Assembly: GCA_000004985.1 (NCBI GenBank)
Contig: GG738851.1
DNA length: 64,000 nucleotides
Reading direction: 5' to 3' (one strand)
Source of the DNA: Naegleria gruberi
Lineage: Eukaryota
Position 1 is the first letter of the stretch. Each line of letters starts with the position of its first letter. Shown piece by piece: positions 2,317 through 59,281 of this stretch. Made by a program: the position numbers and the translations under genes. Below the pieces are notes generated by a model that was given only the letters and a program-made list of their open reading frames with translations, searched no databases and had not been told where the DNA came from.

Positions 2317-2518
2317 ATAACTTGACATTTGAATGGTAATTGAAAAAATCCAATCGACAAGCATTTAAAGACAATAAAATTCAATTTTCTTCAACCTCTG
2401 AGAATATTAACATTTGAATTTCTTGTAAAGCAAAGACCTGTCCTCTTGTCTTACCCTTCAGCCGTCACAATTTTACTTCACACATCAAAACTTCTAAAAA
2501 AAATAATACTAAAACAAA

Positions 2519-3977: not shown

Positions 3978-6900
3978 ATGACGTCCAGAGTGTTTCCTCA
4001 ATCACAAAACACAGCTAGAGTCGCAGGAAGTGTAGTACTAAACGATGCAGAAACTTCCTCTCAATTTGGAGCAGGAACTTCTACCACTTCAAGCTCATTT
4101 GCTTCATCATTGGGTGGGAAAAGTGTTGTAAACAATGCAGGAATAAGTATTTTCTCACTGATAACAACTCTAAGACCTAAAGATACACTAGTTGGTGACG
4201 AGAATACTTACATGTTCCTAGGAATGATATTCTATCATATCTACTTGATATACAACTCTGTAATACTCTCATCACTTTCAACACCAATGATTAGAGATGA
4301 CGATACTAGAACATTGTGGGGAGTTATACCTGGTTGGATATGGAGAGCTTTGTATTTTCCAATCAATTGGGCATCTGAATTCTATCCTTACTTTCTAATT
4401 ATTTCACTATCAATAGCGTTTCTAATTTTACAATTTTCAACTTGTTTTGGAATTTATTATTGTAAATGGGCTTCAAGAAAGGGAGGAAAATTATTTGGAA
4501 GGATCAAGACATTTCTGCTGAATTCATTGTTATTCCAAAGAACTTTTACTTTATTCATCTTGTCTATTCATGCAATTTTGTTATCTCCAAATCTGGATTC
4601 CCAAAATGGAACTTTATATTATTTTCCAAGTCAATCTTTCAGCTCAGTGATACAAATAGTTTGTACCGTAATAGGATGTGTTGGAATATTGTTGAATATT
4701 GGTTTGACGGCTATTGCAACACTTTTAACTGCTGAAACGAGCCCTAAATTGAGCAAAAGAATTTGGTTTTCATTGTATTCAATTTCGCCTTTCATGTTCT
4801 TTAATTTTGTGAATCAAATTAGTTTAGTTTCAACTATTATTTGTACAGGACCTTATACCTATGTTGCTTCTATTGTGAAGATTGTAATGAACGTATTCCT
4901 GCTTATAGTAACGATGAAATCCTTACCATTCTTTAGAAAATGGGAGAATTGCTTTTATTTGGCATTGGTTAGTTTGAAAGTTTTTACTCCAATCCCAACT
5001 TTAATTTTGCAATTTCTTTCCTCGAATCAATTGAATCAACAAGAGATTGGTGGAATAATGACTGGTGTTACTTTTGCAACGGCAGTCATTTCTTTTGGAT
5101 CTGGCTTTATTATTTCTTACGTTTGGTTAGTAATTGAAATGAAATCAGTCAGAAATATGATTTCTAATAAGGAAGACAGTTCCGCAGCATTGCTTCTTCT
5201 TGAGAAATCAAAAAAGAAACAAGATAGTCTTTCACTATTCCTAAGATTTGCAAGCAATAGTGCTCCAGAAATGAAAGTGAGGGAAGGAAGCGATTTTGAC
5301 TTGGCCAAACATGCTGTAAACACACTAGTCAAACCAATTGAAAATGTTGAACTGTTAATTGTCAGTTCCTTATTTGTATCATTTGGTGGTATTCCAGATT
5401 ATGATAGTTCTCAATCATTTAGTATTGGATTGGCTCTATTACAAAAATCTCAACGAATTTCACCATCACTAGCTCAGGTATTCAATATCATGTTAAGAAA
5501 TGAAGAAATAGAATATCATGCCTTTCATGGAAATAATCTTGAAGTTTTAAGAAAACTTGTAATGGTTGAAAAGAAAGTGAAATCATTGTCTAGATGCCAC
5601 AAGTCATTCTTTAAAGAATTATTGAATGATAAACCATCTATTGGTAAATTAGAACAGATTAATAGTGCCAGTTGTTCAATTTATAACGAATGCGACACAA
5701 TTTATGATAATTTACTGGCTTCTAATAGATCCAACAAGACTCTGTTGAGATCGTATGCTTCCTATTTGGAAAAATACAAGTGGGAAATCCAGTTAGCAAA
5801 ACAATTATTTGAGGAAGCTCAAGACAATGATGAAGATAAGAATAAGCAACCGTTTAAGGCATACGAATCCTCATTCCATAAAGGGAACACCTCTAGGTTT
5901 AGTATAGATTCACAAAGAGCTAATATGGATGGTTGGGATTCAGTAAGTGTTGCTGGTGTAGAAGAGAATGACGAAGAAAGAAAAGATCATGTTTTGAGAA
6001 TGGCAATCAACTCTCCTATGTCAACAATTGTATATTCCACATTGTTTTTCCTATTCTGTGCTCTCTCAGTACTAACTATTTGTATCGTTGCTCCCGTTTC
6101 ACTTGTATTTTCTCAGAGTATCAATGAGAGAATGACCATGCAAGAGAAGGTATGCCTAATGACCTCAGTTCCATACAAATTATTAGCTCAGATTCAAGCA
6201 CTTCAAACAGAATATAATTTGAGAGGAAATAATACTGAAAAGCTACTTAATTCTACCATTGATTATACTAATAACTTGTTGGATACTGTTAAAACAGTGG
6301 TATCGGCTGGAGACAATAATATGCTAATGCCAGAAGTTGCCAGAGAATATTTGAAAAATCAATACGAACTTCAACTTCCAATTACAAATGATTCATTAAT
6401 TGGAAAGGAAATTCCTGCATATACAGCCACCAACGCCTCTATTCAATTCTATTTATCTGCTATGTACACTCATGGAAAGACCTTGTTAAATGAATTTAAT
6501 GCTATGGACGGACTGGTTTCGAATACCGATGAGAATTATGCTTTCTTATTTATTTTCTACAATAGAATTCCAATGACTTTAGCTTTCAATAGCTTGTGCT
6601 CTAAATTTGTTGAAGAAAGTGTATCTTCAATTGAAACAAATTTTGAACGCTTGTGGATAATCACAGTTTCCACTCTGGTAACTTATTTGAGTATTTCACT
6701 AATTTTCTTTACAATATTATTCACACACTCGAGAAGACTTGTTGTTGAGCTCAAAGAAATATTTAGAAGAATAACCAAAGATGAAATAGGGAAAGTTTAT
6801 CACAATTTCGAAAAGAAAATAGATGATTCTATTAGCTCTTCAAATAACCTTTTGAAAATGAGCAATATCCTAATGATTGGAAGTTTCCTCTTTGTAATCA

Positions 6901-14644: not shown

Positions 14645-15788
14645 TTACAAATCAACTCCAGAATAGAATAAAAACTTGTTCAACAATCTCATGTACCAAT
14701 GATCTATCAGAATGTGTTTCTCATTATTAGATGAGAATAATTGCTCACAAATTACTGAAGAAACTTTTTGAGGAGATTGAGCATTGTCCATCATCTTTTT
14801 AGCCACTTGATAGAGTTCCATATAAGGTTTGTAAAATTGTGAGCTTTCACTGAATGGTTTCATATTCAAAATTTGGGTTTTTGCAAATCCTGGCTCAATA
14901 CCTATTTCAATAATTTATAAATCATTGTAAAATTGAATGAAAACTTACAAGTAACTCTCAATCCTTGAATAGATTTGAATTCTCTTCTCAAACCGTCTGA
15001 AAATCCATAAAGTGCAAACTTGGTGGTACTGTAAAATCCAGTAAATTTAACAGCACTGTAACTTGCAGCAGATGCAACATTAATTACAATTCCTTGATTA
15101 GATTTTGAATCGTTCTCTTGGTTGTTTGAAATCATCATTGGGTAAATACATCTCAACATTCTAATAGGTCCTAAAATATTCACTCCAAATACATCCAACA
15201 TTTCAGTTTCGGATAATTCAGCTAATCCTGCTGTGTTTTTTGTTTTTGGTGATGAAGTAATTCCTTAATTAGACCAAATACTTGAGTGATATTCCATTCC
15301 AACAATTGATTTTGAATTAATTTTGCAGTGTTTTCAACCTGTTCATTATTCGTTATATCACATGCAAATAATTTCAACTTTTCACAATTATCCGAAAGTT
15401 CTTGCTCGAAAACTTGTTGCATTTGTGAGAGAGAATAATCAATTACAATAACCTTTGCATTCCATCTCGAACCCAATAATTCTTTAGCAACCAAAGATCC
15501 TTAATTAATTAAATATTTAATTAATATCATTATCATAAATACTTGAAATATATTTAAAAACCTACCAATCCCACCCGAGCCCCCAGTAATTACAATTACT
15601 CTATCCCGAGATGAAATATCACATTTTGGTGAATTCCTTCTCAACATCCAATACAACACTGAGGTTGCAATTGTTGTTCTCCACGGATTTTCCCTCATGA
15701 CATTCCAAATATCTGCTAAATAATGATAAACACCACTATTTAAAAGCCCAGAAATTATTTGTCCACCACCAATATTAAATTTCTCCAT
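14645..15788 (-). CDS. Short-chain dehydrogenase/reductase (SDR), ~328 aa, 4 exons on the minus strand: 15788..15566, 15499..15275, ~15230..14949 and 14901..14645. The start could instead be the upstream ATG at 15839.
   Basis: - Four adjacent minus-strand ORF fragments carry SDR motifs: RVIVITGGSGGIG (Rossmann), …AGLAELSETEMLDVFGVNILGP, INVASAASY…YSTTK (catalytic YxxxK), and a C-terminal GFAKTQ.
- They are joined by 40–66-nt introns with GTAGGT, GTCTAA and GTAAGT donors and AG acceptors.
- The exon sum is 987 nt, divisible by 3.
- The exon 2/3 junction is the least certain. Confidence 0.65.
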
Positions 15789-17887: not shown

Positions 17888-18007
17888 AAAGACTACAGCA
17901 CCACAGGTTCCCAAGTTGTCTCCAACCTCAGTACTGATGTGGCTCGACGATGCTTAACTTCTCAAATCGGACGGGATGAGGTGCATTCATCGTGATATGG
18001 CCGTAGC
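17888..18007 (-). rRNA. 5S ribosomal RNA gene, ~120 nt, transcribed on the minus strand and followed by a T7 RNA polymerase III terminator.
   Basis: - Minus-strand sequence GGCTACGGCCATATCACGATGAATGCACCTCATCCCGTCCGATTTGAGAAGTTAAGCATCGTCGAGCCACATCAGTACTGAGGTTGGAGACAACTTGGGAACCTGTGGTGCTGTAGTCTTTTTTT aligns along its length with eukaryotic 5S.
- Shared blocks include GCCTACGGCCATACCAC…CATCCCGTCCGATCTG.GAAGTTAAGCA…GTACT.GG.TGGGAGAC…TGGGAA.ACC.GGTGCTGTAGGCTT.
- The helix I ends pair: 5' GGCUACGGC with 3' GCUGUAGUC.
- It is a local GC-rich island in an intergenic interval. Confidence 0.85.
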
Positions 18008-18282
18008 CATTCACTTTCTTAAAATATGAAACAAAAAGGACAACGGGCCTACTTTCCAAAGGTTACAGGAGATAGAATTCATCTTAGCAACAAACTTCTT
18101 GAGATTTGCTTTTATTAAGAAAGAACGAAATGAGCAAACTTAAAGTTCGGTTGTCAAAACAATTAGATAATTTCCAGAAAAAACAAATCTAGCCAACATA
18201 TTTGATTTTTGGTTGAAACGAACAAGACTGGCGCCAAAAATCCAAACGTTAAGCGTTATTTTATTTTTTCAAACTACGAAAA

Positions 18283-32564: not shown

Positions 32565-33966
32565 ATGCACTCCCCATCTATAACGGCACAACCCTCACCA
32601 ATCGTGTCTGCAACCCATCATACAACTTCAAACAATTCTGAAGGATTTAGTTTACTCTCCCGCCAAAGTGAACTCCATACAACACAACATCAACCAACAT
32701 CAACACACACACCAATAATGAGAATGACAACAACCACATCATTTCCAACCTCAAATAGCATGATATTTGGTTCAACAACGACGACGAGTAACTCATCTAT
32801 CTTTTTACAAACTAGTTCAAATGTACCATACAACAACAATCAACAACAGCAACAACCAATGATTACATTCAATAATAGACAGGATATGATGGCTATATCT
32901 TCATCTCCTTTATCCAATCCTCCAACAAATCCTTTCGCATCACCTTCTTCCAATAATCAATCTTCCTCCACAGCATCTTCATCCTCCATACAACCTTTGA
33001 CAAATGTTCAACAAGTCAACCAAAACATGTACAATAATGATCAAACACCTTCATTCATAACAAGTACAGTTCCAATGTCAACTGTCATGCAACCAAGCAA
33101 TAATACAACATCGAGTTCAACATCCTTAACCCCTGCAAATAATGATCCTAACAATACAAATAGCTCACTAAGATTCGTTACTGTTACAAATGCTGCAGGA
33201 CGATATGAAGGTGAGGTTAATGTTAAAAACGAGCGTCATGGTAAAGGAACAATGTATTTTGCTGGAGGAGGATTTTATAAAGGATATTGGGTGAATGATA
33301 AAATGGAAGGAAAAGGTGAATATTCTTGGGGAGATGGTAATCATTATTTAGGCATGTTCAGAGATGGCAAACAAGTAAGTATTTTTGAAAATTTTGTATT
33401 CTAAAATTGTTTAGAATGGTGTTGGTGTCTATGAATGGCCTTCTGGAGGAAAATATATTGGTCATTGGAAAGATGACAAAATGCATGGATTCGGTACATA
33501 CAAAAGAGATGATGGAATTGTATATTTTGGTTTGTGGGAAGATGACCATCAGAGTGGAATGGGACTTAAAGTTGTTCCAGCTCGTTTTTGTCATGGAGAA
33601 TCACAGAAGAGTTTTGCAAGAAGAAAATTTAGAGAAATTTGGAAAGATAAAACTTTAATCTATCAGAAAGAAATAATTGAAATGCCAAACGTTTTAGCAT
33701 TACAGGAGAAAAATCGTCTTACAGATATTTCAATAGTCTGTCAATCTGACGACGACCAAGAACCTTGCTATCAGGATCCAATAGCCTTACAAAGATTTTT
33801 AAGATCAAGCAGTTCTAATTTAACCTTAGATTTTGCAAAGTATTTTACTATCTCTCAAAATTCAGATGAAGAAAGTGAACCAAACAGAAGGAAACACTAT
33901 CTTGAACATGATGATCAATCACCATCTGATTCCAAATTAACTAAATACACTCATGATAGGGAGTAA
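32565..33966 (+). CDS. MORN-repeat protein, ~453 aa, with an S/T/N/Q-rich N-terminal half. Two exons: 32565..33374 and 33415..33966, with a 40-nt GTAAGT…TTTAG intron.
   Basis: - Exon 1 carries MORN motifs: YEGEVNVKNERHGKGTMYF, YKGYWVNDKMEGKGEYSW, GNHYLGMFRDGKQ.
- Exon 2 continues them: NGVGVYEWPSGGKYIGHWKDDKMHGFGTYKRDDGIVYFGLWEDDHQSGMG.
- The exon 2 frame equals ORF 33481..33966.
- The exon sum is 1362 nt, divisible by 3. Confidence 0.75.
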
Positions 33967-42944: not shown

Positions 42945-43529
42945 ATGTTACCATCACAAACACATCTCAGGAGGAAAAGATTTCATGCGTGGGAATATTT
43001 AGAACATGATTTTCCATCGGATATTCTTGATTTTACAAATGAACAATTACCTAGTGGATTTGAATATTTAAAACAAGATAATTATTTCTTTTCGGAATTT
43101 GATATGGCTTTTCCGAGTGGAATTAGTGATGAAAGTTTACCTAATGATATACCAGACCAACTATTTGATGGAATTAATTTATGTGAGGAATTGTGGGAAA
43201 ACACTCTTCTTTGTCAACTAAAGAAAAAGTATGATAAATTTTGTCAAAAGGATATTGCTGCCTTTTTGAAATGTAAATTAAAGAGAGACCATCAGATTAG
43301 AATTAGAGCGATTGAATTTGAAACATTCAAAATGACACAAGAAAGTCAAAGTGAAATTTCTAAACGAAAGGAGCTAGTAGATAAAAAGATTACTCAAGTT
43401 GAAAATCAATTGGCAAATTCAATCAAGCCACCTTATAGAGATGTCTGCCAAGAACAATTACATTTAAATGATTTACAATTTTTAGAATTGAGAAAATATT
43501 ACATTGAAAAGTCTCTGAAATCAGATTAG
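42945..43529 (+). CDS. Hypothetical protein, 194 aa, of unknown function.
   Basis: ATG-initiated ORF in A-rich context (aaaaaATGtta). It has no recognisable motif and a C-terminal predicted helical/charged region. Confidence 0.45.
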   Translation: MLPSQTHLRRKRFHAWEYLEHDFPSDILDFTNEQLPSGFEYLKQDNYFFSEFDMAFPSGISDESLPNDIPDQLFDGINLCEELWENTLLCQLKKKYDKFCQKDIAAFLKCKLKRDHQIRIRAIEFETFKMTQESQSEISKRKELVDKKITQVENQLANSIKPPYRDVCQEQLHLNDLQFLELRKYYIEKSLKSD

Positions 43530-43744
43530 ATTCACCTTGTTTCCTCAATCAACATTTTGATTAAGCTTGGTAAAATAGGAATGTGGTATCGCGCAAGTAA
43601 TGATGAGATATTTAAATAATAAGAGATAATCGAGACTATAATAAAAATGATCTTTAGAACCATGTCACAATAGATAGCTAACCTCACAATAGATAAACTC
43701 TTCCAATTGGTCGTCTTGATGTGAGATCAGAAAGTCTTTGAAAA

Positions 43745-44801
43745 ATGTTGTTAACATTACAAGAGCTTTACAAATATTTAAGGTGCAATAATGAAAAAGA
43801 CCAAGAATTAAAAAAAATGATCAAACTAAACAGTCAAAATTTTGAAAATCACCAATTCATTAATTCGGAGGAAATATTCAATAATAATATTAATAATATG
43901 GAAGAGAAAGCAATAAAGCTTGTGAAACTCGAACAAGAAATATTTTCAGATGATATTTGTTTTGAAATAATTTCAATGCTGGATGATTCGTGGTTTATTT
44001 TGAATAATTGTTCCTTGATTTCAAAACAATTCTTTAACGTGATCAAGGAACGTTCAAAACTTTTTATTATATTTAAAAAGAAATTTACAGAGAAACGAGT
44101 TGAATTATTCATGAAAAGTCGATTTTTAAACAGTATTGTTAATGTTAAATTTGCAGCAAAGTTGTCTGAAGCCAAAGAAAAACTCAAATTCATTGATATA
44201 ACTTGTGAAATGAAACAATTAACATCACTTAATATTTCTCACCATCTAATTGGTATAGAAGGAGCTAAATTCATAAGTAAAATGAAACAATTAACATCAC
44301 TTGATATTGATTACAATCATATTGGTGTTGAAGGAGCAATATTTATAAGTGAAATGAAACAATTAATATTACTTGATATTCGTAGCAATCTAATTGGTAT
44401 GGAAGGAGCCAAATTCATAAGTAAAATGAAACAATTAACATCACTTAATATTGATTACAATCATATTGGTGATGAAGGAGCAAATGAAACAATTGACATC
44501 GCTTGATATGTATGACAATCAAATTGGTGATGAAGGAGCCAAATACATTAGTGAAATGAAACAATTAACATCACTCAATATTTGTTTCAATCATATTGGT
44601 ATAGAAGGATCCAAATTGATAAGTGAAATGAAACAATTAATATTACTTGATATTAGTGGCAATCTAATTGGTGATGAAGGAGCAAAATATATCAGTGAAA
44701 TGAAACAATTGACATCACTTGATATTAGTGGCAATCAAATTGGTGATGAAGGAGCCAACTACATTAGTGAAATGAAACAATTGACATCACTAAGAAAATA
44801 A
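43745..44801 (+). pseudogene. RI-type LRR protein gene built from ≥13 tandem 72-nt (24-aa) repeats (MKQLTSL[DN]I..N.IG.EGAK[FY]IS.). It is split into two overlapping ORFs by a 13-nt deletion inside one repeat (~44480). This is either a frameshifted pseudogene or an assembly/sequencing error in the repeat array.
   Basis: - ORFs 43745..44506 and 44451..44801 are in different frames.
- Every other unit reads ggagc(m)aaat(w)cat(w)agtgaaatgaaacaatt(r)acatcact.
- The broken unit reads ggagcaaatgaaacaattgacatcgctt, missing ~13 nt (aatatatcagtga). Confidence 0.6.
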
Positions 44802-45237
44802 GCTCATGTGGTATTGAAATAAAACACCACCATTGATAACCAAATGGGTACATATTCTTCATCCAAAAGGATGAGATATGTTGCATAGAATCAAAACTTT
44901 ATTCAACATTGTCAGAACTCAATAGTTGAAGAAACATCAACCTTTCTTGTTGAAAATTTACCTGAAATTGGAGCAATTTCTGAGCTATGGAGTGAGGCTA
45001 CTAGACATTTTTTAAGGCTTTTTGGAAACTGTCCTTAGTAACTGATGATAATTACTGCCATTTCGACTTCCGAGAATGAAGGTGAAAATTAAGTTTGTAA
45101 ACTGAGTGAGCCTGGTTTGACTCTCTATTATTTTCCAAACATTTATCCTCAGTATCAAATTATTCAATAGATTATTCTTTCAAGACCTCTCAAAGAACAG
45201 CCAAATATACAATGCAGTCCCATCAATCTTTTAAAAA

Positions 45238-48200
45238 ATGAGTGTCCCTAACAACCCTGTTGGAGAAATCAACAATAAGGACTCTCTAATAAGTCAGTGT
45301 ATAGAATACATAACCAATGTTGGTGTGCTACTCATCGATTGTGATAGGAATGACTTGAAAATACAATTTAGAAGTTTGGAGAAGAGAGAAATAATTTCTA
45401 CATTCTTGTTTGAACCTTCTCAGTCTGCCTTATTTCTTCAAAAGGCTCCGAAGAGTGAATCAACACCAACTGACTTGGAAATCAAGTCCAATAGTAATGG
45501 TTAGTATTTAGATCAATGTAAATATCTAAATCAAATAATAGAAGTAAAATATGATTATTATTGTATGCTGGAGATGAATTACAGGGATAAATCGGATGGA
45601 ATTTGCTTCATCAAAGGAGATAAGAAGGTTTTTACGGAACAATTATTGGAAGGAAAGAAATTGTCATCATTATTACAAGTGGTGGAAATCAAAAACGATC
45701 TAAATCCTTTTGAATTATTGAACACTTATATTTGTAGTGGATTTGAACCTTATTTTTCATCTTTCGAAAAAACTAAAAGAAATCAAAGAGACTTCAAGAC
45801 ATCAGTAATTTCCGATATTACGGAAAGTTTAAAATCTTTAAAACTTGCATTAAATCAAGTACAACAAGCCTATCAAATTCCCGAGGTGGACGTATTAAGT
45901 TTTGTTCATCAAGATGTAAAGGATATGGTTAAACAAGGAGCAACTTTGGATTCATTGAGTGACAAAATTACCAAGTTGAAGAATGAAACCAAATTAATTG
46001 AAGAAATTAGCAAAATGTCATTGAATTGTGCACACGAAATTAGAGGATTGACACAAAAAGCAGAGTAAGTTGAATATTAGAATTTAATTGTTTAATTTAT
46101 AATATTTAAAAAGAGAAATGAACATTCAGAGTGTTGCCCAAGAAATTAATTATTGGCACTCTTTGGAAAGAACTTTGTCAAATGTTGATCAACAATTGAA
46201 GAGCCAGGAAATAGTATTTACCTTGAATATTTTGAAAAATACAAGAAGAATGCAAGCTTTTACAGCTTTAAACACAACAGGAATAGAAGATGTACTGCAA
46301 AGAGCTAAAGAGTGTAACTCTCTTTTAGCAGATCTACCAATCAATGAATTACTCTCTGCTAAGGATATTGAGAAAATGACAGCAACAATTGCCCAAATGT
46401 TCACTCAGCTCAACAAATCAAAAATATATCACAATAAGGATTCATACCCTATGGAGCGTGCTGTTAAATTAGTAGAGGCTCTGTCAAGGGACGTGTCAGA
46501 AAAATTATTGGAAATTCTAAAATCATCACAAATAATGTTTCTCAATTTTGAAGATTTTGATAGAATAACGAAAAACTGTATTGATTTGTTTGCTACACTG
46601 GATTCGGATATTAAAACATTTACCAAGATTGCAAGTGATGTTGCTAGAAAGAAGCAAAAGACTGCTGTGGAAATGAGTAAATTAGAACATCTTCATTTAC
46701 AAAAAAGAATCGAGGAAATTAGAAATTTCAGAGTGCAACATGAGGAACTTAGAGTAGTTATTGAAAAAGTACTACCAACATCAAATTTCGATGTTAGAGA
46801 AACAAGTGCTTTGGATCAAGTTAATAAGGCTTTTGAAGAATTTAGAACTCTGGAAAATAAGGTATTTGACACTTCATTTGAAGGCCAACAAACTTGGAAG
46901 AGTGCAATTAAATCTTACAATGAAAAAATAGACAAAGCAGAGACTCAAATTACAAGAAAACTCACAGATCAATTAGGTATTGCAAAGAGTGCCAGTGAAA
47001 TGTTTAGAATTTTCTCCAAATTCAATCCTCTTTTCTACAAGCCAAGGATTAGAAGTGCAATTCAACAATATCAAGAGCAATTAGTAGAAAGAGTAAAGGT
47101 CGATATAACCAAACTAGAAGAAAAGTTCAAACAACACTACCCATACTCTGAAACCGAAAAGATGAGTAAGCTTAGAGATTTACCATCTGTATCAGGTTTC
47201 ATTATTTGGGCAAGGCAGATTGAAAAGCAATTAATTGCATACATGAAAAGAGTAGATGACGTTTTTGGAAATGGCTGGGATAGAATGAAAATTTTAAGAA
47301 AAAAGGATTGTCTTTGGACATTGAATGAATCTCTAGCAGAATTTATGGGAGTTCCTTTCTCTAAAATACAATCTAAAATAAGCAGCCATCCAGTTCTCTC
47401 GTTACTAACCAAACCAGAAACTACTGGTACCGCATTAGCTTTAGCTTTCCTTGAACTTGTATATACAGACTCAGAAACCCAATGGAAAGTTATGGCATCA
47501 GAAAGCAGAGAAATACTAAAGAGAGAAGTCGAAAAAACAAGACTTTCTGGTGATATTATTCAACATTGCAGTGAAATTTTGAAAGAAGAAAAGATTGGTG
47601 GTAGACATATCGAAGAAAACAATTTAAGGAAGGAAGGAGAGAAATTTAAGAACAAACTTCAAGGAAATATTTTCACTGTTCTAGAAAGATGGAATAATGA
47701 AGTCTTTGAGAAAATGTTTAAATGGAAAATATTCCACCTCTCAAATGATAGTCAGGTGTCTGTAAAGGGATTTATATTCGAAATTGTAAAAAATAAGGAA
47801 GAAAAATCCGATCTAAGAGTTAATTTTGATAAGGAAATAAGTACTTTAATCAAGGAAGTAAGAAATCTGTCTTCCCTTGATATGATTTCTAGAGTCAAAT
47901 CAGAAATTAAGATTGTAGCTATGGAGGCTTCTCACATACATCCTATAGCTGTATCTCTGTCAGAAAGTATTAAGATATTCAAGAAAGTCATGAAGGAAGT
48001 TGAGGATAGACCTTACGTTAAACCTTTAGCCTCAAAGTATTTGAACAGTATTTATGAAAAGCTTTCAGAAGGATTCAAACTATCTTGGAAGAGCACAAAA
48101 CTTGACAAATACGCCAAAGAACTGTACGAGGACGTCACAAAGTTTTCAAATCATATTCATGATTTACTTTTGGATGTGGATAAAATCTTCAAATTCTTGG

Positions 48201-51200
48201 ATACTCTCAAAACATGTAAATTACACAAGACTAGCTTTGAAGCTATTCTTTCAGATATTCAAAAAGTTATAGACTCTCTCGCTCTTACCGACGAATGTAG
48301 CAATCTCAAATCATGGGTAAATAGCATTAATACTCATATTGAGGAGATTTTATTGGCTAGATTAAACGAATTGTTGAAATTATGGCTTGCTGAATACAAT
48401 TCGATGACTGTTTCAACAGACTTGGGTAAACAGGAGGAAGAATTCGAGGAAGGTTATGAAAAACGTACTCCTCAATCAAAGGAATCTCCAGAAACAGAGG
48501 AAATCAAATCGATATTTGGACAACTTAGTATTTCCAAGTTTAAAGTTGATATCAAGCTTGTGAATCGATCGATGAAAGTTATACCCTCAGTTCATAGAGC
48601 TAAGTCATACTGGGCCTCAAGATTTAGTTTATGTTTGTCATGGATATGTGACTTGCATATTATTCAAAGTGACAGATATGATCAAGCTTTTACTTTAGAG
48701 AAGAGAAAAACTTACAAATATCTTCTTGAAAAAGTACCTCAAGCACTATTACAAACAGTATTCAATCTAATCTCTGCATCAACAAGGAGAGCTGACAAAT
48801 ACGTACAACAATGGTTACAATATCAAGCAATGTGGGAAATGGACATTAACTATGTAATGTCAGAAATCAGTTCCTTGGATTCTTGGGTTCAAATACTCAG
48901 AGATTTGTCTAAGTCTAAATTCATATCAGATAGTGATTCTTATTCCAAAGATTTTGGATCTATTGTTATTAATTACAGAGATGTTTATGAGAAGATTAAC
49001 ATGAAATATGATGATACGTTAAGACAAATGCTCTCCAAATTCTGCACAGAGCTTAAGGAATCTATGAAATCAACATTTGTTATTCTTTCCCAAGAGAGAA
49101 ATGAAGTAGAAACTTCCCGAGTTGAAAGAAGCACACAAGATGCTATCAAATTCCTAACTAAAATAAGATCTCTCAAAAAACAATTCCACACTTGGGAGTC
49201 AAATATCAATCTCTTTAAGGAAGGAGAAAAATTGATTCAAGAGTACAATTGTAAATTCCCAGAGGGATGGATTTTTGCCGATAACGTTGAAGGTGAATGG
49301 AATGCACTCAACCAGATAGTCAAACAAAAGAATGAATCTGTCAAATCCCTAAAGGATCAAATCACAAAGAACTTACTTAGTGACGAAAAGAAGTTATTTA
49401 CATATATTGGTCAATTTGTAGAGGAGTGGAAAACAAAGAGACCTTTGGAAGGAACTATTGAACCTTCTGAAGCTCTTAAGCAATTAGGAGCTCTAGAAGG
49501 AAAGCTCTCGCAACTAAAACAAGAATATAAGAGAATTAGAAAGAGTAGGGAAGCTTTAGATATGGAAGTTATCAAAATGGAGAAATTAGATTCATACGAA
49601 GAGGAGTTGAAGAATCTCAAAGACGTATGGGTCTCTATACAAAGTATTTGGGCAGAGCTCAGCGATCTACGAGAAATTCCGTTCAATAGTGTTATTTGCA
49701 AGACTGTTCAAAATAGACTTACAGAATTGGTAGATAAAATCAAGAAGTTCAATCCTTGGATGCTCACCTATGCATCAGTTGAAAATATTTTATCACAAGT
49801 TGAATTGCATTTGAAAGAAATGGCTATATTGAGATGCCTTAAGGAAGAAGGAATGAAAGAACGACACTGGATTGACCTAAGAAAACAAATTGGTACCAAC
49901 TGGGTACTAACAGAACTCACATTAGGAGATATTTGGAACAGCAAAATACTTGAACATGAACGAGTTATTAGATCAGTCCTAGAAAAAGCAAGAGGAGAAC
50001 TTGGTCTGGAAGTGTACTTGAATCAAGTTAGAGAATTATGGGCAGCGATGAAGTTCGAAGTTGCTAGCCACAATAACAAGGGTTATCTGATAAAATCCTG
50101 GGAAGATATAACTGGGCATATTTTGGATCACCTAAAGACGTTGTCTTCAATGCGGGCTTCTCCATTCTTTAAAACCTTTGAAGATGAATGTGTGTCTTTG
50201 GAAAGCAAGATTAACAGAATGAGAATAATGTGCGATCTATTCATGGATGTGCAAAGAGTTTGGGTTTACTTGGAAGGAGTATTCTCGAGTAACGTAGACA
50301 TTAGATATCAACTCCCAAAAGAAACTCAAAGATTCCAATCTGTTGAGCATGAATTTGTAACCCTTATGAGAAAAGTTCACTCTAATCCACTCTGTCTTGA
50401 AGTTGTAAATATTCCAAATATCACAAGCTCATTAGAAAGATTAACTGAACAACTTTCTAAAATTCAAAAGTCATTGGGTGAATATTTGGAAAAGCAAAGA
50501 GCAGCTTTCCCAAGATTTTACTTTGTTGGTGATGAAGATTTATTGGAAATTATTGGCAATTCAAATGACATTGAAAAATTACAAAAACATTTGAAGAAGA
50601 TGTTTGCGGGTATTTCTACTCTAGAGTTTACAAACTCGACGGTAACTTCTATGGTATCTAAAGAAGGTGAGATTGTTAAATTCCAAAATTCCTTAGAGTT
50701 AGATCCAAAAGAATCAATCCAGACATTTTTAGTAAATCTGGAGAAAGAAATGAGATGCACTCTTTCCTATCTCTTGGGAGAGGCATTCCAAAAATTCCAC
50801 ACCATCGTTGAAAACGAAAGCGGCTTGAATAATACAGACTTAGAAGAATGGATAAAGACATACCCAGCCCAGATAATTACAACTTCTATTCAAATTTGGT
50901 GGACCAAAGTTACAGAAGACCAGCTTTCTAATGAGTTCGATTTACAATCTGTACTGTTCAATGTGATGAGCCTTTTGGAAAAACTTGCAGAAATGTCCTT
51001 ATCCGCAAAGGATAATGTATTAACTCGAAAGAAATTTGAACACCTAATCACAGAACTAGTACACCAACGGGACGTACTCAAACAACTAATCTCTCAACAA
51101 GTTAGAGGAGCCAAGGATTTTTCTTGGCTTTATAACATGAGATTCTACTGGAATGCAAATTGCACAGACCCAGCAGAAAGACTTAATATTTCGGTGGCAA

Positions 51201-54200
51201 ATGCTAACTTTATTTACGGATTTGAATACTTGGGTGTTATTGAAAAACTAGTCCAAACACCTCTCACAGACAAGTGTTACTTAGCTTTAACGCAGGCTTT
51301 ACATTCTAGATTTGGTGGTTCTCCATTCGGTCCTGCAGGTACAGGTAAAACCGAAACTGTTAAAGCTTTGGGAGCACAACTTGGAAGATTTGTTTTAGTT
51401 TTCAATTGTGATGAAACTTTTGATTTCAAGGCCATGGGAAGAATATTCCTTGGTCTTTGTCAATGTGGATCTTGGGGATGTTTTGATGAGTTCAACAGAT
51501 TGAACGAAAAGATGATGTCTGCTGTATCTCAACAAATCCAAACAATTCAAATTGCCCTCAGAGATAGAAAAACTAGCATTGAGCTCATTGGAAGACAATG
51601 CTCTGTTCATGACAACACTGGTATTTTCATAACAATGAATCCGGGTTATGCTGGAAGATCTAACCTTCCTGATAACTTGAAGCAATTATTTAGAAATATT
51701 GCTATGGTTAAACCTGACAAGGAGTTGATTGCTCAAGTAATTCTATACTCACAAGGTTTCAAACTAGCAGAAGAACTTTCAAAGAAGGTAGTGCTTTTCT
51801 TTGATCTATGTAGAGACAAATTATCACACCAATCCCATTATGATTTTGGTTTGAGAGCTTTGAAGAGTGTACTTGTCAATGCTGGTTATTTGAAAAGAAA
51901 CTTTTCATCTACAAACATTGAGTCAAAGCATCTTATCCAGAGTATTCAAGATACTATAATTCCAAAACTTGTTGGTGATGACGTTTCACAACTCAAGTTC
52001 TTAATTTCCAATCTCTTCCCCGGTCTTGAAACTGTCAGCAATCCTCTCACTGAACTGAGACAATACATTTTCGAAATATGCAATTTGTATTCATATTTAG
52101 CAGACGAAAGATGGGTAGAGAAGATTGTTCAACTTTACAATATTCAAAACTTGCATCATGGTTTTATTTGTGTGGGTCCTGCAGCCAGTGGAAAAAGTTC
52201 TTGTTGGAAGATTTTGCTAAAGGCTTTAGAGAAACTAGATGGTATTAAAGGTAGATCTTATATAATAGATCCAAAGGCTATAACCAAAGATGAATTATAT
52301 GGTAGATTAGACTCTACTACAAGAGAATGGAGTGACGGTGTATTTACACAAATATTGAGAAAGATTGTCGACAACTCCCGAGGAGAAAGCACTCAAAGAC
52401 ACTGGATAATATTTGATGGTGATGTAGATCCAGAGTGGGTTGAAAACCTCAACAGTGTTCTTGATGACAATAAGCTTTTCACTCTTCCAAATGGTGAAAG
52501 ATTAGCCTTACCAGAGAATGTGAGAATTATGTTTGAAACTCAAGATTTAAAGTATGCAACCTTGGCCACAGTAAGTCGTTGTGGTATGGTATTCTTCAAC
52601 GATTCTATTTTATCCCACAAAATGATAATTCACCACTATTTGGATAAGTTATCAAGGGAAGGCTCAGATAATCCAAAATTATTGTTACAAAGAAAAATTG
52701 CCTCCATTCTCAGACCTTTCTTACTTGAAAGTGACTTGATTCAACAAATTGCAGACTTTGCACAAAAACAAGAACATATCATGGACTTTTCAATTATGAG
52801 GTCTCTTGATACAACATTTGCCCTCATAAATAAGGGAATCCAAACTGTATTTGAATACAATTGCAATCACTTGGACTTCCCTATCAGTGATGAATCACTA
52901 AAGAGATTTATAACCAACAAAATGGTTTTCTCCTTGTTATGGGGTTTCACTAGCTCATCCAACAATGCTAATAGAAAGAAATTTTCTCAATTCTTGACAT
53001 CTACTATTAGAAATGTGGATTTACCTAGGGATGTCAGTTTAACTGAATTTGAAGTCAGTATCCATGATGGAGAATTTTCTCCTTGGATAAGAAGAGTTCC
53101 AGAAGTAACTGTTGATTCAAATAAGATATTTGGAAACTCAATCATTCCAACTTTGGATACTCTTAGACATGATGATTTATTAGAGTCATGGATTCAAGAT
53201 CACAAGTCAGCAATTTTATGTGGTCCTCCTGGAAGTGGTAAAAGTATGATCATGACATCTGTCCTCAAATCCTTGACAAATTATGAGTGTTGTTACTTGA
53301 ACTTTTCTAGTGCATCAACTCCATCATTAATTCTCAAAACATTTGAACAATATGGTACTGTAAAGAATACATCAGAAGGTCTAGTACTTCAACCAAATCA
53401 AAATGGAAAGTGGCTAGTTGTCTTTTGTGACGAAATTAACTTGCCTTCCAATGACAATTATGGAACTCAGAGAGTTATTTCATTTATAAGGCAATTAGTA
53501 GAACACGGAGGATATTGGAGACCATCAGATCTATCATGGATAAAGTTGGAGAGAATAATGTTTGTTGGGTCTTGCAATCCACCAACTGATTCAGGAAGAA
53601 CACCAATGAGCCCTCGATTCTTAAGACATTGTCCATTGTTATTGGTTGATTTCCCAGAGGAAGAATCATTGAAACAAATCTATGGAACCTTTTCGAAGGC
53701 TCTTGTTAAAAACCATCCAAACTTAGCAAATATTCCAGAAGCCATCACTAACACCATGGTTGAATTTTATTCCAAATCTCAACAACATTTTACTGTTGAA
53801 AAGCAACCACATTATATTTACAGTCCAAGAGAACTTAGTAGATGGATAAGAGCTCTCCAAGAAGGTATAAAAGGTATTGCATACTTAACCTCAGAGGAAT
53901 TGGTAAGATTATTAGTGCATGAAGGATTGAGAATTTTCAGTGATAGACTTGTTCTTGATGAAGAAAAGGAATGGACTGATCAAACTCTGGATCAAACAAT
54001 TAGAAAATATTTTATTAATGTAAATGATTCATGCCTACACAGACCTATTCTATTCAGTAACTGGATTAATAAGTCTTACGTATCTGTTGATAGGGAAGAT
54101 TTGAGAAAATTTGTTGAATATAAGCTCAAAGCATTCTCAGATGAAGAATTGGATGTAAATCTTGTTATATTTGACTCTGTATTGGAACATATTTTAAGAA

Positions 54201-57200
54201 TTGATAGAGTTCTAAAGCAACCTCTTGGACATTTATTATTATGTGGTGAAAGTGGCAGTGGTAAAACTACTCTTTCAAGATTCGTTGCTTGGATGAATGA
54301 TTTCAGTGTATTCCAAATCAAGGCACACAGAAATTATAGTATCAAAGACTTTGAAGAAGATTTACGTAAGGTAATGAGAAGAGCAGGTTGTAAAGATGAA
54401 AAAATTTGCTTTATATTTGATGAATCAAATGTGCTCAAACCAAGCTTCTTGGAATACATGAACTCATTGTTGGCAAGTGGTGAAATACCAGGTTTATTTG
54501 AAGGAGATGAATATTCCAATTTGATAAGCATTTGTAAAGACTCAGCATCAACCAATAATGTACTCAATCTGGATACAGATGACGAAGTTTATCAATGGTT
54601 CATATCTCAAGTCCAAAAGAATCTACATATCGTTTTCACAATCAATCCAGCAAACGCAGACTTTAAGTCAAGGGCATCAACCTCCCCTGCTCTTTTCAAT
54701 AGATGTGTTATTGATTGGTTTGGAGGTTGGCCTTACCAAGGATTGTTCCAAGTTGCCACCGAATATACAATTCCTATTGTTAGAGAACTTACAAAAGATT
54801 CTAAAATGCAAATACCTGAATCACTTGTTGAAATTCATAACGTTGTTTGTAGACTTAGTTCAAATACTGATAAGAAGATTGGCAAAAAGGGTTTCATCTC
54901 TCCTAGACACTATCTAGACTTTATCAAACATCTCGTTCATGTACAAAAAGAAAAGCAACAAGAAATCAAAGAACAACAAAATCACATTGAACGCGGTTTG
55001 AAAAAGTTGAAAGAAACAGAAGGATATGTTTTCACTCTCCAACAACAACTCAAAGTTCAAGAACAGAAACTCTCAGAAAAGAATATTCAATCAAAGGAAA
55101 AGTTGGATCAAATCGTTGAAAACCAAAAGGTAGCCGAAAACAGAAAGCAAGAATTACTTATTCTTTCTAAGCAACTCGAAGAAAAGAGCGTAGGTATCAA
55201 TAGAAGAAAAGAAGAAAGTAGAACACAATTATCCCTTGTTCAACCTCTTCTCAAGAAGGCACAAGATGAAGTTAAAAAGATTGAACCAAAACATATACAA
55301 GAATTAAGAATATTGAATAATCCACCCATCACAGTTAAGAAAACTTTAGAAGCTGTTACTATTCTTCTTAGTCCAAATGAATGGGAAAAGTCTGCACCTT
55401 CTTGGGCTGATATCAGAAAAATAATAAGCTCTTTAGATTTCATTACTAATATCCGTACATTCGACCCAGAAACAGTAGTTATACCAAAGAAGTTAAGAAT
55501 GAGAATACAACAAACCTATCTAGATGACCCAAGTTTGGAAGAATCTAAAGTCTTCAATGCCAGTAAGGCTTGTGGTCCAATGATTTTATGGGTAACCTCA
55601 TGTGTTAAGTTTGCTGATATTGTCGAAAAAATAGAACCACTAAAAGCAGAAGTTAATGCTCTAGAGAAGGAAAGCTTAACATTAATCGATCAAGAAAAAG
55701 AGTTGAACAAGATTGTTTATTACCTCAAACAAAAAATTGACAGCTTTACTGATGAATATACTTCCCTTATGAAAGAAACAAAATCCATAGAAATGGAAAT
55801 GAACTCAGTTAAGAATAAGGTTAACAGATCAATGTCTTTAATTGAGAGTTTATCAAACGAAGCCTCCAGATGGTCTTCTCAAATAGATACTTTCAGAACC
55901 CAAATGGAAACAATTATTGGAGATTCTATTATTTCAGCTGCTTTCTTGTCATATTGTGGTTTCTTTGATGAACAAAATAGAAGAAATTTGTTGTTCATTT
56001 GGACCTCTGTACTTTCAAAGTACAATATTTACACTAGAGATAATCTTTCTCTTGTAGATTTCTTATCTACTCCACAAAAGAGATTGCAGTGGGAGACTTG
56101 TAAACTTCCTACAGATGATATTTGTCTCGAGAATGCTGTTATTTTAGAAAGATTTAATAGATTCCCTCTGATAATAGACCCAACAGGACAGGCCATAGAA
56201 TTTATATCCAACTTTTACAGAACAAAGAATCTTGTAAAGACCAGTTTTACAGATGAAAATTTCTTAAAGAGTCTTGAGAACTCCCTTAGATTTGGTACAC
56301 CAATTATGGTATCAGATGCTGAGAATGTAGATCCTATTTTAAATCCAATACTCAATCGTGAAGTTAAAAAGATAGCAGGAAGAAATATTGTTACACTAGG
56401 AAATCAAGATATCGATCTTTCTCCAACATTCCAGTTAATTTTAGTAACAAGAGACTCAACTCACCAATTTGAACCTGACTTATCAAGCAGAGTTACATTT
56501 GTAAACTTTTCTGTTACTCCTTCCAGTTTGAGAGGACAATGTCTTTCAGCTATCCTTCAACATGAGAAACCAGAAATTGATATCCAGAGATCAGAGCAAA
56601 TCAAGTTGCAAGGAGAATACAAGGTTAAACTCAGATCTCTTGAAGAATCACTTCTAGCATCATTAAGCGAAGCTAAAGGCTCTATTTTAGAAAATGAGTC
56701 TTTAATATCAACTTTAGAGAGTCTCAAAGAAAAATCAAAAGAAATTGAAACCAAAAAGAAAGAGTCTGAGAAGGTTATGGAAACACTAAGCACTATTAGT
56801 GAACTTTATGCACCATTAGCCTCCTTTTGTTCAAGCATTTACTTTACATTAACACAATTATCTGAACTTCATTACCTTTATATTTTCTCACTCTCTCTAT
56901 TTATGAGAACTCTCCATGAAGTCCTAATTATGCGGGAGAAAGAAAACTCAAATCGTGTTGAATTTCTAGTTAAGGCTTTATTTTATGAAATTTATAAGAG
57001 AATCTCTAGGAGTTTATTATATATGGATAGACTTGCTTTTGCCATTAAATTAGCTCACATCAAAATCGGCGACAACTTGATAGATCCAGAAGAAAAAAGG
57101 TTATTCCTTGAAGACTTAGTTGGTTCCTCAGGAATTACCATAGAAGAAAATGGGTTCAAATTTCCTTCTCTACAAAAGCATATGATAGAAAAAATGTCAT

Positions 57201-59281
57201 TAATTCCTGGCTTCCAAAATCTTGAAAAGCATGTTGAAGACAATTTTGAAGAATGGAAAGTCTTCTTTGAAGATGGAAATCATATTCCAACATGTTATCC
57301 TAAATCTGAAAATGAAATTCAAAACTCGTTTAGAGAAATGATGTTATTCAAGATATTCAAACCTGATCATTTAGTTAACCAAATGGAGAGATTTATTGGA
57401 TCTGTTTTTGGAAATGATTTCTTACATGGAAGGGAAACAAGTATCGATACTATTGTTGATAAGGAAGTTGATTGTTTTACTCCTTTAATATTGGCATCAG
57501 TACCTGGTCATGATGCATCAGTGTACATTGATGATTTGGTTAAAACAAATCAAAAGACTTGCTCTTCTGTTGCCATGGGTTCATCTGAATCATATGACCA
57601 GGCCGACAAAGCCATCAATATTGCTATCAAATCAGGATCATGGGTATTATTGAAGAATGTACATCTTTCACCTAAATATCTCTACAAACTTGAAAAAAAG
57701 CTACATTCTTTGAAATGCGATAATAGTATTAACAAGTCATTCAGATTGTTCTTGAGCAATGAGATTCATCCAAATATCAATCTTAATCTTCTCAGAATGT
57801 CATATACACTTGTATTTGAACCAGCCACTGGTATTAAGAGCTGTCTTACACAAACATTCTGCAACCTTTCCAAGGTACGTGTTGAAAAGCCACCAGTTGA
57901 AAGAACCAGACTCTATTTATTGGTGTCATGGCTTCATGCAGTTCTTCAGGAACGTTTACGTTATCCTCCTATTGGTTGGAGTAAGAAGTATGAATTTAAT
58001 CACACAGATTTGAAATCAGCATACGACACCATAGACAAGTGGGTTGATTTGTACTCTGAAGGTCAAACAAACACCAAACCAGAGGCATTACCATGGAAAG
58101 CCCTTCATTCTTTACTTGGAGAATCAATTTATGGTGGAAAGATAGACAATGAATTTGATATGGTTATTTTGAAGTCACTATTGGATGAATTAATGACTCC
58201 TGAAAGCTATAATCTTACATTTACATTACCAGGTATTGATTCAACATTCACAGGAAACAAGTTTGAGAACTTCCAATCATGGATCGAATCACTTCCAAAT
58301 CAACAACCACAATGGCTCGGCTTGCCAACAAATATTAATGAGTTAGTTAATATTAACAAGGCAAACTTGACAATCAGCCAAACTAACAAAATTAAGGATT
58401 TATCACATGATAATACAATTGAAGATCTTAAATCCATGCTGGCTAACACAACCCATGAAAAGATTAGTAATATTGAAGGAATGGAATCTACTATCAACGA
58501 ATGGACAGACATGCTTCCAACTAATTTCGAGTTCGAAATGAAGGAATCAAGTCAACTTGTTCAAGAAAACATTCCTGTATTCAAATTCTTCCAAAGAGAA
58601 TTGAAGACCATTGCATCAGTGCTTGCATTAGTTAAAACAGATTTATTGAATTTGACCAATATCAACAATGGAGAAGCCAAATATACCAACTACTATAGAC
58701 ACCTGATAGATAAATTGTCAAAAGGAAATGTTCCAAAGTCTTGGGGCCATAGCTATCCTTTCCTTGAAAATATTACTGTAAATATGTGGATTTTGGACCT
58801 TGTTAAGAGATTAGACCACCTTTTAGAAGTCAAGACCAATATTGAAAAGTTTGGACGCTTTTCCAATAACAATGAATCGATTTGGTTTGGAGGATTACTG
58901 TCACCTGAGGCATTCTTAACTGCAACCCGTGAAGAAACATCTAACATGCAAAAGATTCCACTTGAGAAGCTACAACTTTGCTTTGTTGATAGAAATCACC
59001 AAAACTCATTCACATTAGAAGGTTTATCAATTCAAAGTGCCAAGTTTATTGATGGTAGAGTATGCATTGGAAAAGAATTGAATTCAATCATTACTCCAAT
59101 TTCTCTTGCATGGGTTAGCTCTGAAATGTTAACTGAAGACATTTCTTCTATCAAAATACCTGTATATCAAAACTCTGCAAGAAAAAAGATCATTTGCTCT
59201 CTTTCTGTCAAGTATGATGAAGAAAATATCTCCAAGAATATAATCTATCAACGTGGTGTAGCTATTTTGGCAAAGGAATAA
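45238..59281 (+). CDS. DYNC1H1: Cytoplasmic dynein 1 heavy chain, ~4650 aa. Three exons: 45238..45499, 45542..46064 and 46114..59281. The ORF-track entry 46118..59281 is only the 3' exon.
   Basis: - AAA1 P-loop context: [40 protein letters not shown]…GSWGCFDEFNRL, diagnostic of cytoplasmic dynein 1.
- AAA3: GPPGSGKS. AAA4: GESGSGKTT.
- The C-terminus …YQRGVAILAKE matches …YERGVAVLCTE.
- Exon 3 begins …QEINYWHSLERTLS, homologous to human QEINFWLNLERAL at ~residue 235.
- The two upstream ORFs (88 and 167 aa) supply the missing ~255 N-terminal residues.
- They are joined by a GTTAGT donor with a 42-nt intron, then a GTAAGT donor with a 49-nt intron, both in phase.
- The exon sum is 13953 nt, divisible by 3. 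Confidence 0.9.

What the first reader, a model, noticed from the sequence alone, without database searches (positions are those of the whole stretch)
45238..46117. Dynein heavy-chain gene has two unannotated 5' exons; the ORF track captures only the 3' exon
The 4387-aa ORF is short for cytoplasmic dynein 1 and begins at the QEINYW motif, which sits ~235 aa into other dynein-1 heavy chains. Two upstream ORFs in other frames join perfectly through GTTAGT and GTAAGT introns of 42 and 49 nt, giving a ~4650-aa protein with a normal N-terminal tail. This corrects the gene model and illustrates the organism's very short introns.
Basis: partly seen in the sequence, partly recalled or inferred. Interest (0 to 1): 0.5.

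Follow-up and report, generated by a model that had tools for sequence, protein, structure and literature searches.

The report
Naegleria dynein-1 gene: missing 5' exons
The window comes from the amoeba Naegleria gruberi, and its cytoplasmic dynein heavy-chain gene has two short introns near its 5' end, so the full protein is 4650 residues; this is an ordinary gene-model correction and no new biology.

Summary
ORFs 45238-45504 and 45565-46068 join to the 4387-aa ORF (46118-59281) through GT-AG introns of 42 nt (45500-45541) and 49 nt (46065-46113). The result is an uninterrupted 4650-aa protein.

Exons 1+2 on their own match the N-terminal dimerisation region of human DYNC1H1 (residues 65-219, E about 1e-6). 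The joined N-terminus aligns to human 65-396 (E 5e-35) across both junctions, with no gap at junction 2.

Two environmental relatives have introns at the same places and phases but with different lengths (39/37 nt and 52/46 nt). Differences between the window and the closer relative fall mainly on third codon positions in both upstream exons.

Exact protein matches identify the window as Naegleria gruberi NEG-M. The gene is already annotated as 'cytoplasmic dynein' (EFC48313.1, 4533 aa), so 'two unannotated exons' is only partly right. That model contains most of exon 2. It lacks exon 1 and the first 11 residues of exon 2, and it uses a downstream acceptor (46170) that deletes 19 conserved residues including QEINYW.

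Introns of about 40 nt already occur in accepted N. gruberi models. No transcript evidence could be reached. This is a useful curation fix of low novelty.

The parts
45232..45234 (+). In-frame TAA one codon upstream of the proposed start ATG, so exon 1 cannot extend further 5' in this frame
   Evidence: Sequence read directly; translation of the upstream 300 nt
45238..45499 (+). Exon 1 (262 nt; Met1 to Asn87 plus the first base of codon 88). It encodes the extreme N-terminus of the dynein-1 heavy chain and is missing from the public model.
   Evidence: 77% aa identity over 60 residues to the equivalent exon of relative L001 (E 6e-26). Substitutions by codon position 24/21/52, p=1e-4. Collinear with the N-termini of single-ORF dynein fragments P0127, P0128, P0129 and P0136. 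This ORF is not present as a protein in the public collection.
45500..45541 (+). Intron 1, 42 nt, phase 1, GTTAGT...AATAG. A tandem AAG acceptor at 45544 would give a 45-nt alternative lacking Glu88.
   Evidence: Stops in all three frames, GC 19%. Alternatives enumerated. Phase-1 introns in the same linker in L001 (39 nt, GTTTGT..AAG) and L003 (52 nt, GTAAGT..TAG).
45542..46064 (+). Exon 2 (523 nt; residues 88-262), the core of the N-terminal dimerisation region. The public model starts inside it, at the ATG at 45574 (Met99).
   Evidence: Alone it retrieves dynein N-terminal fragments from 1.84 billion proteins (best hits E 1e-66 and 6.5e-36). Together with exon 1 it matches human DYNC1H1 65-219 (E 1.2e-6) and the dimerisation-domain crystal chain 5owo (E 1.3e-4). 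Codon-position substitutions 41/27/103, p=3e-13.
46065..46113 (+). Intron 2, 49 nt, phase 2, GTAAGT...AAAAG
   Evidence: Stops in all frames, GC 12%. Same position and phase in L001 (37 nt) and L003 (46 nt). The amino-acid sequence across the junction (LTQKAEEMNIQSVAQEINYW) is identical in L001. The alignment to human DYNC1H1 has no gap here.
46114..59281 (+). Exon 3 (13,168 nt including the stop): rest of the tail, linker, six AAA+ modules, stalk and C-terminal domain
   Evidence: Pfam DHC_N1, DHC_N2, AAA_6, AAA_7, AAA_8, AAA_9, MT, Dynein_heavy, AAA_lid_11 and Dynein_C, with Dynein_C matched to profile position 308 of 309. 4369 C-terminal residues are identical to the public model.
46114..46170 (+). 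57 nt that the public model treats as intron (acceptor at 46170) but that is coding: EMNIQSVAQEINYWHSLER
   Evidence: Against L001 there are no indels, five synonymous third-position changes and one replaced codon. L003 has the same length and EINFW. DHC_N1 scores 241.9 bits from profile position 12 with this segment, against 217.2 bits from position 39 without it.

Best explanation
The locus is the single cytoplasmic dynein-1 heavy-chain gene of Naegleria gruberi NEG-M. Its coding sequence has three exons: 45238-45499, 45542-46064 and 46114-59281. They are separated by two very short, AT-rich spliceosomal GT-AG introns, one of 42 nt in phase 1 and one of 49 nt in phase 2. Splicing gives a 4650-aa protein. 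The first roughly 260 residues, encoded by exons 1 and 2, form the N-terminal dimerisation region of the dynein tail. This region runs directly into the DHC_N1 tail domain, the linker and the six-AAA+ motor. The public 4533-aa model is an automatic prediction that missed exon 1, started at an internal Met, and chose a downstream AG for intron 2. Shown here: the open joined frame, the homology of each part, conservation of intron position and phase, and purifying selection on the exons. Inferred: that these exact sites are used in the mRNA, and that ATG 45238 is the start codon.
For: The joined CDS is open and 4650 aa long. Exons 1+2 alone match human DYNC1H1 65-219 at E 1.2e-6 and the dimerisation-domain chain 5owo at E 1.3e-4. 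Joined residues 53-397 align to human 65-396 at E 5e-35, crossing both junctions, with no gap at junction 2. Exon 2 alone finds dynein N-terminal fragments among 1.84 billion proteins. In other organisms, contiguous ORFs P0127 and P0136 span the exon 1/2 boundary, and P0128, P0129, P0131 and P0001 span both boundaries; BLASTP of joined 17-166 against P0127 gives E 4e-22. Relative L001 (about 64-75% nt identity) has introns at the same positions and phases with lengths 39 and 37 nt, and L003 (45% aa identity) has 52 and 46 nt. Substitutions fall mainly on the third codon position in exon 1 (p=1e-4) and exon 2 (p=3e-13). DHC_N1 scores 24.7 bits higher than with the public model. Other introns of 40 and 47 nt with GTAAGT donors lie in the same window, and the 40-nt one reproduces a public protein exactly. 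The whole protein is dynein-1: 3775 bits to DYNC1H1, against 1449 to dynein-2 and 1418 or less to axonemal chains. Organism identity comes from exact matches to N. gruberi proteins.
Against: No cDNA, EST or RNA-seq junction was available. Two scans of JGI metagenome contigs for the spliced junction-2 sequence found nothing. Junction 1 lies in a poorly conserved linker, so homology cannot separate acceptor 45541 from the tandem AG at 45544. Exon 1 on its own gives only weak matches outside close relatives (E 0.007-0.08 in a 10-sequence database). The start codon is inferred: the L001 contig ends 6 nt upstream of its ATG, so upstream conservation could not be examined.
Confidence: 0.9

Rival explanations
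1. The public model is right. The protein starts at Met99 (nt 45574), exon 1 is not part of the gene, and intron 2 is 106 nt long (46065-46170).
For: This is the only model held in NCBI, RefSeq, UniProt and EukProt. The 46170 acceptor (GGAAAG) keeps the frame open. The same AG is present in L001.
Against: It removes 19 residues, including the QEINYW motif conserved from human to protists. Those 57 nt show a coding-type substitution pattern and no indels against L001, and L003 keeps the same length. The DHC_N1 score falls by 24.7 bits and 27 profile positions are lost. Exon 1 is under purifying selection and matches the N-termini of other dynein-1 proteins.
Confidence: 0.04
2. The three-exon structure is right, but intron 1 uses the tandem acceptor at 45544 (a 45-nt intron, protein 4649 aa lacking Glu88), or both acceptors are used (NAGNAG-type wobble).
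For: Both AGs keep the frame open. The junction lies in a variable linker where homology cannot decide.
Against: From general knowledge of 3' splice-site choice, the first AG after the branch point is usually preferred (inference, not tested here). AATAG resembles the acceptor of the 47-nt intron at 14902-14948.
Confidence: 0.15
3. The upstream ORFs are a separate small gene or a decaying remnant, or the frame changes are sequencing or assembly frameshifts and not introns.
For: None beyond the fact that a mechanical ORF list shows three separate ORFs.
Against: The ORFs are collinear with a single polypeptide in other organisms. Third-position bias shows purifying selection. The interrupting segments start with GT and end with AG, carry stops in all frames and are far more AT-rich than the exons. 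The same interruptions occur, with different lengths, in two independently assembled relatives.
Confidence: 0.01

Closest known systems
Human cytoplasmic dynein 1 heavy chain DYNC1H1 (PDB 5nug, 6f1t; N-terminal dimerisation domain 5owo)
   Same: Length is nearly the same (4650 against 4646 aa). Joined residues 53-397 align to human 65-396, and the public model's 642-4532 (joined 759-4649) aligns to human 675-4645. The domain order is the same: dimerisation region, DHC_N1, DHC_N2 linker, AAA1-6, stalk, C-terminal domain. AAA1 has the P-loop GPAGTGKT.
   Different: The first roughly 260 residues are only weakly similar (E about 1e-6). The Naegleria tail has about 84 extra residues between joined 397 and 759 relative to human; L001 keeps them as coding sequence. 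According to PMC3583065, no dynactin p150 or p24 homologue was found in N. gruberi.
Public N. gruberi gene model EFC48313.1 / XP_002681057.1 / UniProt D2V441, 'cytoplasmic dynein', 4533 aa
   Same: Same locus, same donor at 46065, and 164 residues of exon 2 plus 4369 C-terminal residues identical.
   Different: It lacks residues 1-98 (exon 1 and the first 11 residues of exon 2) and residues 263-281 (EMNIQSVAQEINYWHSLER), because it uses the acceptor at 46170 instead of 46113.
Other short spliceosomal introns of N. gruberi, for example in the MORN-repeat gene EFC48308.1
   Same: GTAAGT or GTTAGT donor, AG acceptor, 40-49 nt, very AT-rich.
   Different: Nothing distinctive. The published mean intron length for the N. 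gruberi annotation is 203 bp (PMC8296547), so these lie at the short end.

Membership tests
Cytoplasmic dynein 1 heavy chain | N-terminal dimerisation region (human residues about 1-200) | tested here: met
   Exons 1+2 alone match DYNC1H1 65-219 at E 1.2e-6 and 5owo 63-198 at E 1.3e-4. This is a sequence match only; no structure was predicted.
Cytoplasmic dynein 1 heavy chain | Tail domain DHC_N1 (PF08385) and linker DHC_N2 (PF08393) | tested here: met
   DHC_N1 241.9 bits (cut-off 28.3), starting at joined residue 251 and so spanning junction 2. DHC_N2 393.1 bits.
Cytoplasmic dynein 1 heavy chain | Ring of six AAA+ modules with a hydrolytic AAA1 P-loop, a microtubule-binding stalk and a C-terminal domain | tested here: met
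   AAA_6 452.7, AAA_7 135.6, AAA_8 235.8, AAA_9 251.5, MT 96.5, Dynein_heavy 90.9 and Dynein_C 119.8 bits. GPAGTGKT is visible in the sequence.
Cytoplasmic dynein 1 heavy chain | Closer to dynein-1 than to dynein-2 (IFT) or axonemal heavy chains | tested here: met
   3775 bits to human DYNC1H1, against 1449 to DYNC2H1 and 1418 or less to axonemal chains. Best database hits are named 'dynein heavy chain 1, cytosolic' at 57-62% identity, against about 45% for dynein heavy chain 2.
Cytoplasmic dynein 1 heavy chain | Motor activity, dimerisation and subunit binding | not testable with these tools
   Needs biochemistry.
Spliceosomal GT-AG intron (both interruptions) | GT donor and AG acceptor whose removal restores one open frame | tested here: met
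   GTTAGT..AG and GTAAGT..AG; the joined frame is open for 4650 codons.
Spliceosomal GT-AG intron (both interruptions) | Non-coding character: stops in all frames, composition unlike the exons, length free to vary between relatives | tested here: met
   Stops in all three frames, GC 19% and 12% against 34%. Lengths 42/39/52 nt and 49/37/46 nt in three taxa, at the same positions and phases.
Spliceosomal GT-AG intron (both interruptions) | Absence from the mature mRNA | not testable with these tools
   No transcript data were reachable. Two junction-pattern scans of JGI metagenome contigs returned nothing.

The most novel reading that the evidence does not exclude
Both intron-2 acceptors (46113 and 46170), or an internal start at Met99, might really be used. 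That would give a minor dynein-1 isoform lacking the N-terminal dimerisation segment or the QEINYW stretch, in an organism reported to lack dynactin p150. Nothing here supports this; it simply cannot be excluded without transcript data.
Probability: 0.03. Interest if true: 0.35.

Novelty: already known. Interest (0 to 1): 0.15.

Why it matters
Only as curation. The database entry for the single N. gruberi cytoplasmic dynein heavy chain (D2V441) lacks its first 98 residues, part of the region that aligns to the human N-terminal dimerisation domain, and has a 19-residue internal deletion in a conserved tail motif. Anyone using that entry for dynein phylogeny, structure prediction, tagging or knock-down design would be working from a truncated N-terminus. 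It is one more case of the known problem that automatic N. gruberi models mis-set start codons and intron boundaries; a 2026 preprint corrected eight kinetochore gene models for this reason. It does not change what is understood about dynein or about Naegleria introns.

Tried and rejected
(1) A first homology search with the joined 400-aa N-terminus returned only one distant fragment, P0001, so it did not identify the organism.

(2) The first exact look-up found nothing. The four minus-strand references were mis-set: the 3 nt were trimmed at the wrong end. The five plus-strand ORFs are not stand-alone public proteins. The repeat with correct coordinates identified N. gruberi.

(3) The exact 4650-aa joined protein and the exon-1 ORF are not in the 15-billion-protein collection. 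No public source therefore holds the corrected model there. CyMoBase, the Kollmar laboratory's manually curated motor-protein database (from my own knowledge), could not be checked.

(4) Two degenerate patterns for the spliced junction 2 were scanned against JGI metagenome and metatranscriptome contigs, with 0 hits.

(5) No tRNA was found in the window. Rfam gave only a 5S rRNA.

(6) Alternative donors were considered. GTAATG at 45494 does not fit the GTWWGT pattern of the eight donors seen in the window and its relatives. More distant GT/AG pairs would delete conserved coding sequence.

(7) I considered whether the extra tail residues relative to human hide an in-frame intron. This was rejected: the closer relative L001 keeps the segment without indels at 60-80% amino-acid identity.

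(8) Structure prediction was not attempted.

Full report
**What is in the sequence.** On the + strand the mechanical ORF list shows three consecutive ORFs in different frames: 45238..45504 (88 aa), 45565..46068 (167 aa) and 46118..59281 (4387 aa). Reading the DNA and joining 45238-45499, 45542-46064 and 46114-59281 gives a CDS whose length is a multiple of three. It has one terminal stop and encodes 4650 residues.
- The first removed segment is 42 nt: GTTAGTATTTAGATCAATGTAAATATCTAAATCAAATAATAG.
- The second is 49 nt: GTAAGTTGAATATTAGAATTTAATTGTTTAATTTATAATATTTAAAAAG.
- Both have stop codons in all three frames. Their GC is 19% and 12%, against 34% for the CDS.
- An in-frame TAA lies one codon upstream of the ATG at 45238.

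**Do the upstream ORFs belong to dynein?** Yes.
- The 4387-aa ORF carries the full set of dynein heavy-chain Pfam domains. Its DHC_N1 match starts only at profile position 29, so the N-terminus is cut.
- The 262 residues of exons 1+2, searched without any exon-3 sequence, hit human cytoplasmic dynein 1 heavy chain at residues 65-219 (E 1.2e-6). They also hit the crystallised N-terminal dimerisation domain 5owo (E 1.3e-4). Nothing else was significant.
- With 138 residues of exon 3 added, the alignment to human DYNC1H1 runs from 65 to 396 (E 5e-35). It crosses both junctions and has no gap at junction 2.
- Exon 2 alone (173 aa, a contiguous translation of the window) was scored against 1.84 billion representative proteins. 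It found 15 hits at E <= 0.001. Those read or aligned afterwards are N-terminal dynein fragments.
- Several hits are single uninterrupted ORFs. P0127 and P0136 cover the equivalents of exons 1 and 2. P0128, P0129, P0131 and P0001 cover exons 1, 2 and 3. BLASTP of joined residues 17-166 against P0127 gives E 4e-22 and crosses junction 1.

**Comparative evidence for the introns.** The best exon-2 hit, P0122, lies on a 2.7-kb JGI metagenome contig (L001) that shows the same three-ORF layout.
- In L001 the interruptions sit at the same codons and phases: phase 1 after a G, and phase 2 after GA. Their lengths differ from the window's: 39 nt (GTTTGT...AAG, containing an in-frame TAA) and 37 nt (GTAAGT...AAG).
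- Amino-acid identity to the window is 61% in exon 1, 74% in exon 2 and 83% in the start of exon 3.
- Nucleotide differences by codon position are 24/21/52 in exon 1 (chi-square p=1e-4) and 41/27/103 in exon 2 (p=3e-13). Both upstream exons are therefore under purifying selection in exactly the proposed frames.
- The peptide across junction 2, LTQKAEEMNIQSVAQEINYW, is identical in the two species although the intron differs by 12 nt.
- A more distant relative, L003 (45% identity, a Logan assembly), again has a phase-1 intron in the linker before the Y-x-C-x-LE motif (52 nt, GTAAGT..TAG). It also has a phase-2 intron after ...RAE (46 nt, GTATGT..CAG), with the same nine residues between the split Glu codon and EINFW.

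**Which organism, and what is already annotated?** Exact look-ups place the window in Naegleria gruberi NEG-M. The HSP70 ORF is EFC48452.1, the taurine dioxygenase ORF is EFC48450.1, and further ORFs match as well, all on one 693,645-bp scaffold.

The dynein gene is already annotated as 'cytoplasmic dynein' (EFC48313.1 / XP_002681057.1 / D2V441, 4533 aa). Comparison with the joined protein shows three things about the public model:
- It starts at Met99 (ATG at 45574, inside exon 2).
- It runs to the same donor at 46065.
- It then resumes at TLSNVDQQ..., which means it uses the acceptor at 46170 and a 106-nt intron. The remaining 4369 residues are identical.

So exon 2 is largely annotated. Exon 1 is not: its ORF is absent from the collection. 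The public intron 2 also removes 19 residues.

That 57-nt stretch is coding:
- Against L001 it has no indels, five synonymous third-position changes and one replaced codon.
- L003 keeps the same length.
- The QEINYW-type motif is conserved in human and protist dyneins.
- The DHC_N1 score is 241.9 bits from profile position 12 with the segment, against 217.2 bits from position 39 without it.

**Short introns in this genome.** A scan of the window for GT[AT]AGT donors that join long open segments found two further cases.
- The first is 40 nt, at 33375-33414 (+). It joins MORN repeats, and the spliced product is exactly the public protein EFC48308.1.
- The second is 47 nt, at 14902-14948 (-). It restores a short-chain dehydrogenase motif (...GLRVT / IEPGFAKT).

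Introns of 40-50 nt are therefore ordinary here and already present in accepted models. The published mean for the annotation is 203 bp (PMC8296547).

**Classification.** The whole protein scores 3775 bits against human DYNC1H1, 1449 against dynein-2 and 1418 or less against axonemal heavy chains. The AAA1 region is about 60% identical to 'dynein heavy chain 1, cytosolic' of animals and fungi, and about 45% identical to dynein 2. It is a normal dynein-1 heavy chain.

**What remains uncertain.**
- No transcript data could be reached, and two junction-pattern scans of JGI contigs found nothing.
- Junction 1 lies in a variable Ser/Glu-rich linker, so the tandem acceptor at 45544 (minus Glu88) cannot be excluded.
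- The start codon is inferred from four observations: the upstream stop; the equivalent ATG in L001, which has a similar A-rich context; the collinearity with the N-termini of other dyneins; and the offset to human, where query residue 53 aligns to human residue 65.
- RNA-seq that would settle all of this exists for N. gruberi.

**Verdict.** The result is a small, well-supported correction to a public gene model of a well-known, conserved motor protein. Interest is low.

Noticed in passing
window 17890-18008 (-): A complete 5S rRNA gene (Rfam RF00001, 105 bits, E 4e-22) sits among protein-coding genes.
   Followed up: no
window 42945-44801 (+): Directly upstream of the dynein gene is an array of ribonuclease-inhibitor-type leucine-rich repeats (...GDEGAKYISEMKQLTSLDISGNQIG...), split into three ORFs. 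The first, 42945-43526, is the public protein EFC48311.1. The next two (43745..44506 and 44451..44801) overlap in different frames. Around 44480-44500 one repeat appears to lack about 14 nt, which suggests a frameshift, a pseudogene or an unrecognised intron.
   Followed up: partly
window 33375-33414 (+) and 14902-14948 (-): Two more very short GTAAGT...AG introns, of 40 and 47 nt. The first reproduces the public MORN-repeat protein EFC48308.1 exactly. The second joins two halves of a short-chain dehydrogenase across its conserved ...RV(T)-I-x-PG motif.
   Followed up: partly
window about 47300-47630 (joined protein residues about 650-760): Relative to human DYNC1H1, the Naegleria tail has about 84 extra residues between joined 397 and 759. 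The metagenomic relative L001 keeps the segment without indels at 60-80% identity, so it is a lineage-specific coding insertion and not a hidden intron.
   Followed up: partly
window 45212-45241 (+): A 9-codon upstream ORF (ATG CAG TCC CAT CAA TCT TTT AAA AAA TGA) overlaps the proposed dynein start codon out of frame. Whether it lies in the mRNA leader depends on the transcription start, which is unknown.
   Followed up: no
L003 about 944-984: In the more distant relative the dynein ORF is interrupted again at ...HAK|GTAAAT..., about 90 codons after junction 2. This looks like a third intron that N. gruberi and L001 lack.
   Followed up: no
literature (PMC3583065): No dynactin p150 (dynactin1) or p24 homologue was found in N. 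gruberi, yet its dynein-1 heavy chain keeps a complete N-terminal tail. This is odd for a cell reported to use microtubules mainly in mitosis and in the flagellate stage.
   Followed up: no
protein collection, cluster of P0146 and P0147: The 4533-aa public dynein is filed in a 90%-identity cluster whose representative is the 167-aa exon-2 ORF from an ENA contig. This may be why the N-terminal homology search did not return the organism's own protein, although the 167-aa representative itself was not returned either.
   Followed up: no
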